A model generated the notes under the pieces. That model ran no database searches, had not been told where the DNA came from, and saw only the letters and a list, made by a program, of their open reading frames with translations. From NCBI GenBank assembly GCA_000002435.2, contig AACB03000015.1: DNA of 3,464 nt; one strand, given 5' to 3'. Position 1 is the first letter of the stretch; each line of letters starts with the position of its first letter. Positions 1-3,464 of this stretch are shown here, piece by piece. This stretch comes from Giardia intestinalis. Lineage: Eukaryota. The translations under genes were made by a program, and so were the position numbers.

Positions 1-221
1 GCGGCCCCAACGACCAGACGTGCCTGGACTGCAAGACTCCTGGCGAGAACGTGCAGCTCGATAAAGAAAGCTGCGGCCCCACCTGCCCGCAGAACTCCTC
101 CCCCAACCAAACGTCTGCGAGTGCAACCCGGGATTCAACCTGAACGATAGAAAAGACGCGTGCGAGGCGGTTGCCAACACAAACTGCGCACAAGAGCTGC
201 AGAATGCGGGCTGCAAGACGT
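1..221 (+). repeat. Repeat copy 1, 221 bp, 5'-truncated by the window edge in phase.
   Basis: One deletion in the A-run 109-111 (A3 versus canonical A4). A local aaaga to aagaa change at 65-69 turns canonical LDKR into LDKE in frame. Confidence 0.9.
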
Positions 222-3200
222 GCGGCCCAACGACCAGACGTGCCTGGACTGCAAGACTCCTGGCGAGAACGGTGCAGCTCGATAAAAGAAGCTGCGGCCC
301 ACCTGCCCGCAGAACTCCTCCCCCAACCAAAACGTCTGCGAGTGCAACCCGGGATTCAACCTGAACGATAGAAAAGACGCGTGCGAGGCGGTTGCCAACA
401 CAAACTGCGCACAAGAGCTGCAGAATGCGGGCTGCAAGACGTGCGGCCCCAACGACCAGACGTGCCTGGACTGCAAGACTCCTGGCGAGAACGTGCAGCT
501 CGATAAAAGAAGCTGCGGCCCCACCTGCCCGCAGAACTCCTCCCCCAACCAAAACGTCTGCGAGTGCAACCCGGGATTCAACCTGAACGATAGAAAAGAC
601 GCGTGCGAGGCGGTTGCCAACACAAACTGCGCACAAGAGCTGCAGAATGCGGGCTGCAAGACGTGCGGCCCCAACGACCAGACGTGCCTGGACTGCAAGA
701 CTCCTGGCGAGAACGTGCAGCTCGATAAAAGAAGCTGCGGCCCCACCTGCCCGCAGAACTCCTCCCCCAACCAAAACGTCTGCGGAGTGCAACCCGGGAT
801 TCAACCTGAACGATAGAAAGACGCGTGCGAGGCGGTTGCCAACACAAACTGCGCACAAGAGCTGCAGAATGCGGGCTGCAAGACGTGCGGCCCCAACGAC
901 CAGACGTGCCTGGACTGCAAGACTCCTGGCGAGAACGTGCAGCTCGATAAAAGAAGCTGCGGCCCACCTGCCCGCAGAACTCCTCCCCCAACCAAACGTC
1001 TGCGAGTGCAACCCGGGATTCAACCTGAACGATAGAAAAGACGCGTGCGAGGCGGTTGCCAACACAAACTGCGCACAAGAGCTGCAGAATGCGGGCTGCA
1101 AGACGTGCGGCCCCAACGACCAGACGTGCCTGGACTGCAAGACTCCTGGCGAGAACGTGCAGCTCGATAAAAGAAGCTGCGGCCCCACCTGCCCGCAGAA
1201 CTCCTCCCCCAACCAAAACGTCTGCGAGTGCAACCCGGGATTCAACCTGAACGATAGAAAAGACGCGTGCGAGGCGGTTGCCAACACAAACTGCGCACAA
1301 GAGCTGCAGAATGCGGGCTGCAAGGACGTGCGGCCCCAACGGACCAGACGTGCCTGGACTGCAAGACTCCTGGCGAGAACGTGCAGCTCGATAAAAGAAG
1401 CTGCGGCCCCACCTGCCCGCAGAACTCCTCCCCAACCAAAACGTCTGCGAGTGCAACCCGGGATTCAACCTGAACGATAGAAAAGACGCGTGCGAGGCGG
1501 TTGCCACACCAAACTGCGCACAAGAGCTGCAGAATGCGGGCTGCAAGACGTGCGGCCCCAACGACCAGACGTGCCTGGACTGCAGACTCCTGGCCGAGAA
1601 CGTGCAGTCGATAAAAGAAGCTGCGGCCCCACCTGCCCGCAGAACTCCTCCCCCAACCAAAACGTCTGCGAGTGCAACCCGGGATTCAACCTGAACGATA
1701 GAAAAGACGCGTGCGAGGCGGTTGCCAACACAAACTGCGCACAAGAGCTGCAGAATGCGGGCTGCAAGACGTGCGGCCCCAACGACCAGACGTGCCTGGA
1801 CTGCAAGACTCCTGGCGAGAACGTGCAGCTCGATAAAAGAAGCTGCGGCCCCACCTGCCCGCAGAACTCCTCCCCAACCAAAACGTCTGCGAGTGCAACC
1901 GGGATTCAACTTGAACGATAGAAAAGACGCGTGCGAGGCGGTTGCCAACACAAACTGCGCACAAGAGCTGCAGAATGCGGGCTGCAAGACGTGCGGCCCC
2001 AACGACCAGACGTGCCTGGACTGCAAGACTCCTGGCGAGAACGTGCAGCTCGATAAAAGAAGCTGCGGCCCCACCTGCCCGCAGAACTCCTCCCCCAACC
2101 AAAACGTCTGCGAGTGCAACCCGGGATTCAACCTGAACGATAGAAAAGACGCGTGCGAGGCGGTTGCCAACACAAACTGCGCACAAGAGCTGCAGAATGC
2201 GGGCTGCAAGACGTGCGGCCCAACGACCAGACGTGCCTGGACTGCAAGATCCTGGCGAGAACGTGCAGCTCGATAAAAGAAGCTGCGGCCCCACCTGCCC
2301 GCAGAACTCCTCCCCAACCAAAACGTCTGCGAGTGCAACCCGGGATTCAACCTGAACGATAGAAAGACGCGTGCGAGGCGGTTGCCAACACAAACTGCGC
2401 ACAAGAGCTGCAGAATGCGCGGGCTGCAAGACGTGCGGCCCCAACGACCAGACGTGCCTGGACTGCAAGACTCCTGGCGAGAACGTGCAGCTCGATAAAA
2501 GAAGCTGCGGCCCACCTGCCCGCAGGCTCCCCCCCAACCAAAACGTCTGCGAGTGCAACCCGGGATTCAACCTGAACGATAGAAAAGACGCGTGCGAGGC
2601 GGTTGCCAACACAAACTGCGCACAAGAGCTGCAGAATGCGGGCTGCAAGACGTGCGGCCCCAACGACCAGACGTGCCTGGACTGCAAAGACTCCTGGCGA
2701 GAACGTGCAGCTCGATAAAAGAAGCTGCGGCCCCACCTGCCCGCAGAACTCCCCCCCAACCAAAACGTCTGCGAGTGCAACCCGGGATTCAACCTGAACG
2801 ATAGAAAAGACGCGTGCGAGGCGGTTGCCAACACAAACTGCGCACAAGAGCTGCAGAATGCGGGCTGCAAGACGTGCGGCCCCAACGACCAGACGTGCCT
2901 GGACTGCAAGACTCCTGGCGAAACGTGCAGCTCGATAAAAGAAGCTGCGGCCCCACCTGCCGCAGAACTCCTCCCCAACCAAAACGTCTGCGAGTGCAAC
3001 CCGGGATTCAACCTGAACGATAGAAAAGACGCGTGCGAGGCGGTTGCCACACAAATGCGCACAAGAGCTGCAGAATGCGGGCTGCAAGACGTGCGGCCCC
3101 AACGACCAGACGTGCCTGGACTGCAAGATCCTGGCGAGAAACGTGCAGCTCGATAAAGAGCTGCGGCCCCACCTGCCCGCAGAACTCCTCCCCAACCAAA

Positions 3201-3464
3201 ACGTCTGCGAGTGCAACCCGGGATTCAACTGAACGATAGAAAAGAGCGTGCGAGGCGGTTGCCAACACAAACTGCGCACAAGAGCTGCAGAATGCGGGCT
3301 GCAAGACGTGCGGCCCCAACGACCAGACGTGCCTGGACTGCAAGACTCCTGGCGGAACGTGCAGCTCGATAAAAGAAGCTGCCGGCCCCACCTGCCCGCA
3401 GAACTCCTCCCCCAACCAAAACGTCTGCGAGTTGCAACCCGGGATTCAACCTGAACGATAGAAA
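1..3464 (+). CDS. Internal fragment, 5' and 3' partial, of a gene for a large tandem-repeat cysteine-rich protein with 74-aa EGF-like modules of 10 Cys each. The frame is interrupted by about 43 indels, which are either sequencing errors in an intact gene or a degenerate, pseudogenised array.
   Basis: In the canonical unit only one + frame lacks stops. The +1 frame has TGA in aacctgaacg, and the +2 frame has TAA in cgataaaag and TAG in cgatagaaa. The open frame shows GC3 of about 80%, with 59 of 74 third positions G or C, and an invariant TGC Cys codon ten times per unit. It carries the EGF_2-type pattern CECNPGFNLNDRKDAC. The longest uninterrupted in-frame stretches of this frame are about 300-784, 996-1324, 1609-1872 and 1900-2219. 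The window begins in codon phase 3 with gc|ggc|ccc|aac. No start or stop of the real gene lies in the window. Confidence 0.6.
222..442 (+). repeat. Repeat copy 2, 221 bp.
   Basis: Deletion of c in run 226-228; insertion of g at 271-272; deletion of c in run 298-300. Confidence 0.9.
443..664 (+). repeat. Repeat copy 3, 222 bp, canonical unit with an intact 74-codon frame.
   Basis: Identical to copy 10 (1993-2214). Translates in frame, with codon starts at 442, 445 and so on, to CGPNDQTCLDCKTPGENVQLDKRSCGPTCPQNSSPNQNVCECNPGFNLNDRKDACEAVANTNCAQELQNAGCKT. Confidence 0.95.
665..886 (+). repeat. Repeat copy 4, 222 bp, with a compensating indel pair.
   Basis: Insertion of g at 784-785; deletion of a in run 817-819. 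The shifted stretch between them contains an in-frame TAG at 814-816, which is the end of track ORF 493..816. Confidence 0.9.
887..1106 (+). repeat. Repeat copy 5, 220 bp.
   Basis: Deletion in C-run 963-965; deletion in A-run 994-996. Confidence 0.9.
1107..1329 (+). repeat. Repeat copy 6, 223 bp.
   Basis: Single insertion of g at 1324-1325 (caaggacg versus caagacg). Confidence 0.9.
1330..1551 (+). repeat. Repeat copy 7, 222 bp.
   Basis: Insertion of g at 1341-1342; deletion in C-run 1430-1433 (C4 versus C5). ccaacacaaa becomes ccacaccaaa at 1504-1513, a deletion of a plus an insertion of c, or two substitutions. Confidence 0.88.
1552..1772 (+). repeat. Repeat copy 8, 221 bp.
   Basis: Deletion of a at 1584 (tgcagactcc); insertion of c at 1594-1595 (tggccgag); deletion of c at 1607/1608 (gcagtcgat). 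Confidence 0.9.
1773..1992 (+). repeat. Repeat copy 9, 220 bp.
   Basis: Deletion in C-run 1872-1875; deletion in C-run 1899-1900 (caaccggg). C to T substitution at 1911, which is CTG to TTG and synonymous for Leu in the coding frame. Confidence 0.9.
1993..2214 (+). repeat. Repeat copy 10, 222 bp, canonical.
   Basis: Identical to copy 3. Confidence 0.95.
2215..2434 (+). repeat. Repeat copy 11, 220 bp.
   Basis: Deletions in C-run 2219-2221, at 2249/2250 (aagatcctgg), in C-run 2312-2315 and in A-run 2363-2365. A 2-bp insertion at 2418-2420 (gaatgcgcgggc). Confidence 0.88.
2435..2653 (+). repeat. Repeat copy 12, 219 bp.
   Basis: Deletion in C-run 2511-2513. At 2523-2535, cagaactcctccccc is replaced by caggctccccccc, a net loss of 2 bp together with an a to g change. 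Confidence 0.85.
2654..2875 (+). repeat. Repeat copy 13, 222 bp.
   Basis: Insertion in A-run 2686-2688 (tgcaaagac). Loss of t near 2752, so cct ccc cc becomes ccccccc. Confidence 0.88.
2876..3092 (+). repeat. Repeat copy 14, 217 bp.
   Basis: Five single-base deletions: g at about 2921 (ggcgaaacg), C-run 2960-2961, C-run 2973-2976, a at 3049 and c at 3055/3056 (acaaatgcgc). Confidence 0.88.
3093..3309 (+). repeat. Repeat copy 15, 217 bp, the most damaged copy.
   Basis: Deletion at 3128/3129; insertion in A-run 3139-3141; 2 bp lost in 3155-3160 (gataaagagctgc); deletion in C-run 3190-3193; deletion of c at 3229 (caactgaac); deletion of c at 3245/3246 (aagagcgtg). Confidence 0.88.
3310..3464 (+). 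repeat. Repeat copy 16, 155 bp, 3'-truncated by the window edge.
   Basis: Deletion of a at 3354/3355 (ggcggaacg); insertion of c at 3382-3383 (gctgccggc); insertion of t at 3432-3433 (gagttgcaa). Confidence 0.88.

What the first reader, a model, noticed from the sequence alone, without database searches (positions are those of the whole stretch)
1..3464. Copies differ almost only by small homopolymer indels, about 43 indels against at most 3 substitutions, which points to sequencing or assembly error rather than a natural pseudogene
I aligned each copy to the two identical canonical copies, 443-664 and 1993-2214. The differences are about 32 single-base deletions and about 11 insertions. Most are in C-runs such as tcctccccc (C5 to C4 in copies 7, 9, 11, 14 and 15), ggcccc and cccggg, or in A-runs such as caaaacg, agaaaag and gataaaag. 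Only 2-3 substitutions are present, for example 1911 C to T. Natural divergence of coding repeats normally accumulates substitutions at least as fast as indels, and selection removes indels that are not multiples of 3. A deletion-biased, homopolymer-associated, substitution-poor profile matches long-read raw error or an unpolished assembly. The true gene is probably an intact perfect-repeat ORF, and all ORFs in the supplied track are artefactual frame-hopping fragments.
Basis: seen in the sequence. Interest (0 to 1): 0.55.

Follow-up and report, generated by a model that had tools for sequence, protein, structure and literature searches.

The report
Error-ridden duplicate of Giardia VSP repeats
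The window is a small leftover PacBio contig of the Giardia WB reference genome that duplicates the repeat array of a known surface-antigen (VSP) gene, and its roughly 44 frameshifts are almost certainly uncorrected sequencing errors, so the finding is ordinary.

Summary
The window is 15.6 tandem copies of a 222-bp unit. Against the two identical canonical copies they differ by 32 single-base deletions, 12 insertions and at most 4 mismatches. Deletion frequency rises steeply with homopolymer length, from 0.5% per single base to 32% per C5 run.

The window is a whole 3464-bp unplaced contig of the Giardia intestinalis WB-C6 PacBio RS II assembly (AACB03). It carries two RefSeq "High cysteine protein" entries that hop in and out of the true reading frame.

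The same assembly encodes an intact 1029-aa VSP (XP_037901961.1) on a 2.76-Mb chromosome. That protein has a leader, 13 exact copies of the same 74-aa unit, a transmembrane segment and a CRGKA tail.

The assembly paper says the small contigs were built with Canu from reads that did not map to the chromosomes. It reports PacBio homopolymer frameshifts, of which only 85 indels were fixed using 75-bp Illumina reads.

Real paralogous units differ by 14-44 substitutions and 0-3 in-frame gaps, which is the opposite profile.

Verdict: a sequencing and assembly artefact laid over a known VSP tandem-repeat gene. The reads themselves could not be inspected. The contig holds more copies (15.6) than the chromosomal gene (13), so the true copy number is open.

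The parts
1..3464 (+). Tandem array of 15.6 copies of a 222-bp unit. It is the internal repeat region of a Giardia VSP gene, with no gene start, gene end or unique flank. The window equals a whole unplaced contig.
   Evidence: TRF. The consensus + frame is open and has GC3 of 0.80. The encoded proteins sit on a contig of 3464 bases.
443..664 (+). Canonical error-free unit (unit 3). In the true frame it encodes the 74-aa module with 10 Cys and 2 CXXC motifs.
   Evidence: Identical to 1993-2214. Its translation equals the unit repeated 13 times in P0004.
1993..2214 (+). Second canonical error-free unit (unit 10).
298..783 (+). Longest stretch in which the true reading frame is uninterrupted (486 nt).
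   Evidence: Frame segmentation. Translation of 301-783 has no stops.
647..1480 (+). Annotated CDS for 'High cysteine protein' KAE8301199.1/XP_037901525.1 (P0003, 277 aa). It is an artefactual frame-hopping ORF.
   Evidence: Mapped to the window. Only 362 of 834 nt are read in the true frame. Accessions.
1755..2276 (+). Annotated CDS for 'High cysteine protein' KAE8301200.1/XP_037901526.1 (P0001, 173 aa). It is an artefactual frame-hopping ORF.
   Evidence: Mapped to the window. Only 320 of 522 nt are read in the true frame. Accessions.
1430..1430 (+). Example of the most frequent lesion: the C5 run at unit position 100-104 is read as C4. The same lesion occurs at 1872, 2312, 2973 and 3190.
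   Evidence: 5 of about 15.7 instances are shortened.
1911..1911 (+). The only clean substitution, C>T, which is synonymous (CTG to TTG, Leu).
   Evidence: with the frame.
578..2515 (-). Longest mechanical ORF (645 aa), on the antisense strand. It is not a gene. The unit lacks stop codons in two antisense frames, so the indels stitch those frames together.

Best explanation
The window is a redundant, poorly corrected long-read contig. It represents the tandem-repeat region of a real Giardia intestinalis WB variant-specific surface protein (VSP) gene.

Shown:
- The real gene, on a 2.76-Mb chromosome of the same assembly, encodes a hydrophobic leader, 13 perfect 74-aa Cys-rich modules, a transmembrane segment and the CRGKA tail.
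- The contig holds 15.6 copies of the same unit, with 44 single-base indels and essentially no substitutions.
- Indel frequency scales with homopolymer length.
- The assembly is PacBio RS II. By the authors' description, its small contigs were built with Canu from reads that did not map to the chromosome scaffolds.

Inferred:
- The indels are residual consensus errors from a few noisy reads.
- They survived polishing because the contig consists only of a repeat that is also present elsewhere in the assembly. Long and 75-bp short reads therefore map ambiguously, or prefer the error-free copies. As a result, Quiver had little uniquely mapped evidence to correct with, and the authors' short-read rule of at least 10 reads with at least 50% support was not met.
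- The two RefSeq 'High cysteine protein' entries on this contig are by-products of gene calling on frameshifted sequence.

Open: whether the contig comes from the chromosomal array itself (which would then be under-counted at 13 copies) or from a longer allele.
For: - Identity of the contig: P0001 and P0003 ('High cysteine protein', G. intestinalis WB C6) lie on a contig of 3464 bases, which is the window length.
- Intact gene: P0004 (VSP, KAE8303776.1) is from the same strain and assembly, on a contig of 2,761,001 bases. It contains 13 exact, evenly spaced copies of the window's canonical unit translation, plus a TM segment and CRGKA. It passes Pfam VSP PF03302 at 39.4 bits against a cut-off of 31.4.
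- Error signature: 32 deletions, 12 insertions and 4 or fewer substitutions. Deletions are enriched in runs of 3 or more (p = 8e-6). The dose-response with run length is monotonic (z = 11.5).
- Natural-divergence control: units of eight or more real paralogues differ from this unit by 14-44 substitutions and only 0-3 in-frame gap events. All 10 Cys are kept wherever the local alignment covers the whole unit.
- Provenance: PMC7000408 describes PacBio RS II data and HGAP/Quiver assembly. Unmapped reads were assembled with Canu 1.4. [quoted passage not shown] - General precedent: the Polypolish abstract (PMC8812927) states that residual long-read errors are mostly homopolymer-length errors, and that those in repeats often survive short-read polishing.
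- A preprint on Giardia Cys-rich families concludes that most annotated HCPs are probably pseudogenes, and that no complete VSP lies on the 30 unplaced scaffolds.
Against: - No reads or base qualities could be inspected, so the indels are not directly shown to be absent from the DNA.
- 15 of 32 deletions and most insertions are outside runs of 3 or more.
- Two non-homopolymer deletions recur: T at unit position 99 in adjacent units 12 and 13, and C at unit position 37 in units 11 and 15. This recurrence could also arise by inheritance of real variants between units.
- It is unexplained why reads from an array already present on the chromosome scaffold 'failed to map' to it.
- The contig has more copies (15.6) than the chromosomal gene (13), so it is not simply contained in it.
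Confidence: 0.9

Rival explanations
1. The contig is a genuine second locus: a decayed, frameshift-riddled pseudo-VSP repeat array whose units accumulated slippage indels in short homopolymers.
For: Giardia WB has many pseudo-VSPs (208 annotated; PMC7000408). The contig is not contained in the 13-copy chromosomal gene, since it has 15.6 copies. Some identical non-homopolymer deletions recur in different units.
Against: 44 indels against one clean substitution is the reverse of what real divergence in this family shows, which is 14-44 substitutions per 0-3 gaps. Runs of only 4-5 bases are hit in 13-32% of instances, which is implausibly high for biological slippage with no accompanying point mutation. 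Two units are still perfect, and all units are otherwise identical at every nucleotide. The data type and the authors' own remark on homopolymer errors supply a sufficient cause.
Confidence: 0.05
2. The indels are errors, but the contig reports a real structural variant: an allele, or a subpopulation of cells, with a longer array (at least 16 units) than the 13-unit copy placed on the chromosome.
For: The contig has 15.6 copies and no flank, against 13 copies in P0004. Allelic copy-number variation is documented for vspA6 and vspC5, and repeat numbers in assemblies are described as approximate (PMC2996952). Another repeat VSP grew from 4 to 7 copies between the old and new WB assemblies. The 2010 catalogue lists the 222-nt-repeat genes vsp13 (about 8-9 copies) and vsp15 (3 copies).
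Against: Copy number in a contig built from a few noisy reads lying wholly inside a perfect repeat is unreliable. No spanning read or flank is available. This rival is compatible with the best explanation and refines it rather than competing with it.
Confidence: 0.4
3. The frameshifts are functional, through programmed ribosomal frameshifting or phase variation at homopolymers that produces variable surface proteins.
For: None, beyond the location of many indels in short C and A runs of a surface-antigen gene.
Against: The true frame changes 43 times in 3.4 kb, and no translation system could follow that. The out-of-frame stretches hit stop codons in two of the three sense frames. Giardia VSP switching is described as epigenetic/RNAi-based rather than slippage-based (PMC2996952 background). 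An intact copy exists.
Confidence: 0.01

Closest known systems
VSP KAE8303776.1 / XP_037901961.1 (P0004), Giardia intestinalis WB C6, on the 2.76-Mb chromosome of assembly AACB03
   Same: Its 74-aa repeat unit is identical to the translation of the window's canonical unit, and the copies are perfect and head-to-tail. It comes from the same strain and assembly.
   Different: It has 13 copies, is in frame throughout, and has a leader, a TM segment and a CRGKA tail. The window has 15.6 copies, 44 indels and no gene ends. The comparison is at protein level only.
vsp13 and vsp15 of the WB vsp catalogue (Adam et al. 2010, PMC2996952): 222-nt tandem repeats on chromosome 4
   Same: Both have a 222-nt repeat. 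Their Cys and CXXC counts (93/18 and 33/6) are exactly what the P0004 architecture gives with 9 and 3 units. In the machine-read C-terminal alignment, both show the KSSGLSTGA variant that begins P0004's last 38 residues, a variant shared with several other vsp genes. vsp13 is the first gene of a linear array on chromosome 4.
   Different: The reported lengths (725 and 300 aa) differ by 8-11 residues from the model (733 and 289 aa). The copy numbers are lower, and the authors caution that repeats may have been condensed by assembly.
Repeat-containing VSPs vspA6 (CRP170, 195-bp repeat) and vspC5 (105-bp repeat)
   Same: They share the architecture of a short leader, many identical tandem units and a conserved 3' end. 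Allelic copy-number variation is documented, and the vspA6 repeats are immunodominant (PMC2996952).
   Different: The unit lengths and sequences differ.
Paralogue P0014 (VSP, 1602 aa, same chromosome)
   Same: It has a 74-aa unit with the same 10-Cys pattern, in 15 exact copies.
   Different: Its unit differs at 14 of 74 residues with no gaps, and a roughly 400-aa non-repeat ectodomain follows. It shows that real divergence between arrays proceeds by substitution.
Residual homopolymer-length errors of long-read-only assemblies in repeats
   Same: The errors are dominated by indels, biased towards deletions, dependent on run length, and located in a repeat where short-read polishing is unreliable (PMC7000408; PMC8812927 abstract).
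   Different: About half of the events here lie outside runs of 3 or more, which fits a very low-coverage consensus better than a well-covered polished one.

Membership tests
Giardia variant-specific surface protein (VSP, Pfam PF03302) | Cys-rich ectodomain (about 11-13% Cys) with multiple CXXC motifs | tested here: met
   The consensus unit has 10 Cys in 74 aa and 2 CXXC motifs. P0004 is 12.9% Cys with 26 CXXC motifs.
Giardia variant-specific surface protein (VSP, Pfam PF03302) | Conserved C-terminal transmembrane segment followed by CRGKA | tested here: met
   The window is internal repeats only and does not contain this feature. It is present in the intact gene product with the identical unit, P0004...GLVGFLCWWFLCRGKA.
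Giardia variant-specific surface protein (VSP, Pfam PF03302) | N-terminal signal peptide | not tested
   The window lacks the 5' end. P0004 starts with the hydrophobic leader MLVGFLLVCATVLAK that other VSPs share, but no signal-peptide predictor was run.
Giardia variant-specific surface protein (VSP, Pfam PF03302) | Score above the Pfam gathering threshold for PF03302 | tested here: met
   P0004 scores 39.4 bits against a cut-off of 31.4. Three consensus units alone give no PF03302 hit, only borderline TNFR_nem and cEGF hits.
Residual long-read consensus error (assembly artefact) | Indels greatly outnumber substitutions, with deletions in excess | tested here: met
   32 deletions, 12 insertions and 4 or fewer mismatches. 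Deletions against insertions give p = 0.004.
Residual long-read consensus error (assembly artefact) | Error probability rises with homopolymer length | tested here: met
   0.5%, 1.1%, 2.5%, 12.7% and 31.9% per run instance for lengths 1 to 5, with trend z = 11.5.
Residual long-read consensus error (assembly artefact) | The sequence derives from error-prone long reads with weak polishing | tested here: met
   The contig belongs to the PacBio RS II WB assembly. The non-chromosomal contigs are Canu assemblies of unmapped reads, and the authors report homopolymer frameshifts (PMC7000408).
Residual long-read consensus error (assembly artefact) | An accurate version of the same sequence exists without the lesions | tested here: met
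   P0004 has 13 perfect in-frame units identical to the canonical translation. This is shown at protein level only.
Residual long-read consensus error (assembly artefact) | Accurate reads contradict the contig at the indel sites | not testable with these tools
A metagenome scan for an independent copy found nothing.
Naturally decayed pseudogene (pseudo-VSP) | Lesions include point substitutions at least as often as indels, as in real divergence within the family | tested here: not met
   There is one clean substitution against 44 indels. Real paralogous units show 14-44 substitutions per 0-3 gap events.
High cysteine protein (HCP), as annotated in RefSeq for this contig | A genuine ORF encoding a Cys-rich protein | tested here: not met
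   The annotated CDSs read the true Cys-rich frame for only 43% and 61% of their length, and the rest is out-of-frame Arg/Ala/Pro-rich text. P0001 has no Pfam hit.

The most novel reading that the evidence does not exclude
The contig is a real, separate locus: a recently duplicated VSP repeat array inactivated almost purely by homopolymer slippage. That would imply an unusual indel-dominated mutational process in Giardia, for example a mismatch-repair weakness at short runs.
Probability: 0.04. Interest if true: 0.4.

Novelty: not a real feature. Interest (0 to 1): 0.08.

Why it matters
The importance is practical rather than conceptual.

- Two RefSeq/UniProt proteins, XP_037901525.1 and XP_037901526.1 ('High cysteine protein'), are translation artefacts of a redundant, error-laden contig in the reference genome of a major human parasite. 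They inflate the HCP family and should be flagged or removed.
- The contig holds more repeat units than the chromosomal gene. This hints that the copy number of this VSP array in the reference (13) may be an underestimate, or that alleles differ in copy number. That matters for anyone using this VSP's size or repeat epitopes.
- The case also illustrates that polishing fails on contigs made only of repeats.

Tried and rejected
- The first word-indexed protein search, using three consensus units, returned only the two artefactual proteins' cluster and one 63%-identical small VSP. It missed the intact gene. The exhaustive representative search then found it.
- The look-up of encoding contigs gave 'not on record' for P0001, P0002 and P0004. 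The chromosomal DNA of the intact gene could therefore not be fetched, and the comparison stayed at protein level.
- A scan of JGI metagenome contigs with a homopolymer-free 46-mer of the unit found nothing. A second scan was judged futile, because any true copy would contain that 46-mer.
- A PDB sequence search with P0004 gave no hits.
- AlphaFold2 on the one-module VSP P0002 with an 8-sequence alignment gave mean pLDDT 47 and pTM 0.25. That is too poor for a fold search, so no fold claim is made beyond the weak Pfam cEGF/TNFR-like hits.
- The 2024 Be-2/WB comparison paper contains none of the search terms tried (tandem repeat, unplaced, frameshift, homopolymer, small contigs, High cysteine protein).
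- Programmed frameshifting or phase variation was considered and rejected, because the frame changes 43 times and an intact copy exists.
- The long antisense ORFs were considered and rejected. The unit simply lacks stop codons in two antisense frames.
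Full report
**What is in the window.** Tandem Repeats Finder reports one array over the whole window: period 222, 15.7 copies, 97% matches, 2% indels. Units 443-664 and 1993-2214 are identical, and they are the only exact full-length copies.

I aligned the window globally to 16 concatenated canonical units. 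This gave 32 single-base deletions, 12 single-base insertions and 4 mismatch columns.
- Two mismatches (66/67) amount to one A-run shortened and the neighbouring A-run lengthened.
- One mismatch (2526) lies inside a complex indel.
- Only 1911 C>T is a clean substitution, and it is synonymous.

This includes C5 to C4 in units 7, 9, 11, 14 and 15.

**Is the pattern non-random?**
- Runs of 3 or more bases make up 18% of the unit but take 17 of 32 deletions (p = 8e-6).
- Deletions per run instance rise monotonically with run length: 0.5%, 1.1%, 2.5%, 12.7% and 31.9% for lengths 1-5 (trend z = 11.5).
- Deletions outnumber insertions 32:12 (p = 0.004).
- The discrepancy rate is 1.39%, about QV 18.6.
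- One qualification: about half of the events lie outside runs of 3 or more, so 'almost only homopolymer indels' overstates the case.

**What the repeat encodes.** One sense frame of the consensus unit is open, with GC3 of 0.80. It gives a 74-aa module with 10 Cys and two CXXC motifs.

In the window this true frame changes window frame 43 times, and the longest intact stretch is 298-783. Two antisense frames of the unit also lack stop codons. This explains the long mechanical ORFs on the minus strand.

**Where the window comes from.** A protein search returned two 'High cysteine protein' entries of Giardia intestinalis WB clone C6: KAE8301200.1/XP_037901526.1 and KAE8301199.1/XP_037901525.1. 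Both lie on a contig whose length, 3464, equals the window. They map to 1755-2276 and 647-1480. They read the true frame for only 320 of 522 nt and 362 of 834 nt.

The assembly paper (Xu, Jex and Svard 2020, PMC7000408) describes the following:
- PacBio RS II data were assembled with HGAP3/Quiver.
- Reads that failed to map to the five chromosome scaffolds were assembled separately with Canu 1.4 and added.
[quoted passage not shown] - They corrected only 85 indels genome-wide, using 75-bp Illumina reads and requiring at least 10 reads with at least 50% support.

**The intact gene exists.** The exhaustive representative search with the error-free stretch 301-783 found P0004. P0004 is VSP KAE8303776.1/XP_037901961.1 of the same strain and assembly, on a 2,761,001-base contig. 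It has four parts:
- a 22-aa hydrophobic leader;
- 13 exact, evenly spaced copies of the 74-aa unit obtained by translating the window's canonical copy;
- a transmembrane segment;
- the CRGKA tail.

It passes the Pfam VSP model at 39.4 bits against a cut-off of 31.4.

The 2010 WB vsp catalogue lists two chromosome-4 genes with 222-nt repeats and no gene number: vsp13 (93 Cys, 18 CXXC) and vsp15 (33 Cys, 6 CXXC). These are exactly the counts that the P0004 architecture yields with 9 and 3 units. The machine-read C-terminal alignment shows the KSSGLSTGA variant for both genes, which is the start of P0004's last 38 residues; several other vsp genes share that variant. That paper warns that repeat numbers may have been condensed by assembly. 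It also notes that vspA6 and vspC5 alleles differ in copy number.

**Natural-divergence control.** Real relatives of this module differ from it by 14-44 substitutions and only 0-3 in-frame gap events, with all ten Cys kept wherever the local alignment covers the whole unit. Examples:
- P0014: 15 exact copies of its own unit on the same chromosome, 60 of 74 residues identical to this unit, no gaps.
- P0015, P0016, P0002 and others show the same substitution-dominated pattern.

Each real array is internally perfect. The window shows the reverse profile, 44 indels to one clean substitution. This does not look like evolution in this family.

**Mechanism (inference).** The contig was built from a few noisy reads lying wholly inside a perfect repeat. 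After it was merged with the chromosomes, every long or short read from the array could map equally well to many positions, or better to error-free units. Neither Quiver nor the authors' pileup rule then had usable evidence at the erroneous sites. The Polypolish abstract (PMC8812927) states the general point: residual long-read errors are mostly homopolymer-length errors, and those in repeats often survive short-read polishing. Gene callers then produced two bogus 'High cysteine proteins'. A preprint on Giardia Cys-rich families independently concludes that most annotated HCPs are likely pseudogenes, and that no complete VSP lies on the 30 unplaced scaffolds.

**What remains open.**
- The reads could not be inspected, and the chromosomal DNA could not be fetched. 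An independent copy was not found in metagenomes.
- The contig holds 15.6 units against 13 in the chromosomal gene. Either the chromosomal array is under-counted, or a longer allele exists, or the contig's copy number is itself unreliable. Another repeat VSP grew from 4 to 7 units between the old and new assemblies, so under-counting has precedent.
- It is also unexplained why reads from an array already present on a scaffold were left unmapped.
- Two non-homopolymer deletions recur. T at unit position 99 is lost in adjacent units 12 and 13. C at unit position 37 is lost in units 11 and 15. I read these as context-specific consensus errors, but a real variant is not excluded.

**Comparison with the known, and verdict.** The underlying biology is a known kind of gene: a tandem-repeat VSP, like vspA6 and vspC5, most likely vsp13 or vsp15 of the 2010 catalogue. 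The frameshifted copies that prompted the finding are best explained as sequencing and assembly artefacts (confidence 0.9). A genuine slippage-decayed pseudo-array keeps about 0.04-0.05.

A structure prediction of the single-module relative P0002 was too poor to use (pLDDT 47), and no solved relative exists by sequence. Interest is low. The practical value is in flagging a redundant contig and two spurious database proteins, and in noting that the array's copy number is uncertain.

Noticed in passing
window 1-3464 compared with P0004: The contig contains 15.6 repeat units and no flank, whereas the chromosomal gene product has 13 units. The reference copy number may be under-counted, or alleles may differ in length.
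   Followed up: partly
window 2531 and 2753; 2250 and 3129: Identical non-homopolymer deletions recur. The T at unit position 99 is lost in adjacent units 12 and 13, which fuses C2 and C5 into C7. The C at unit position 37 is lost in units 11 and 15. These may be context-specific consensus errors or, less likely, real variants shared between units.
   Followed up: partly
window 1-3464, + strand: Deleted bases are strongly asymmetric: C 18, A 11, T 2, G 1, although the unit has 72 C and 61 G. Part of this is because the long runs on this strand are C and A runs. It could also reflect a consensus drawn from very few reads of one orientation.
   Followed up: no
window 1-1732 compared with 1733-3464: Discrepancies are denser in the second half (30 against 18; 12 in the last 464 bases). 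This is not significant (p = 0.11) but fits read support falling towards one contig end.
   Followed up: partly
window 578-2515 and 1686-3062, minus strand: There are very long antisense ORFs (645 and 458 aa). They exist only because the unit has no stop codons in two antisense frames, so they are not genes.
   Followed up: yes
P0014 (1602 aa) and P0004 (1029 aa), same 2.76-Mb chromosome: These two VSP genes carry arrays of 74-aa units that are each internally perfect (15 and 13 exact copies) but differ from each other at 14 of 74 residues with no gaps. This is a clear case of homogenisation within arrays and divergence between them.
   Followed up: partly
P0007 (XP_001709860.1, 451 aa) compared with P0013 (XP_001709860.2, 598 aa): The same VSP gene has 4 exact 76-aa repeats in the old WB annotation and 7 in the PacBio-based one. 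This shows that the Sanger assembly condensed repeat arrays.
   Followed up: yes
consensus unit, residues ...NVCECNPGFNLNDRKDAC: The C-terminal half of each module gives weak, repeated hits to Pfam cEGF and TNFR-like Cys-rich models (summed 123.9 bits for cEGF over P0004). The fold could not be confirmed because the AlphaFold model was poor (pLDDT 47).
   Followed up: partly
tool behaviour, one search compared: The word-indexed protein search with three consensus units missed the 1029-aa intact VSP, although that protein is in the collection. Only the exhaustive search found it. Perfect internal repeats may defeat the candidate filter.
   Followed up: no
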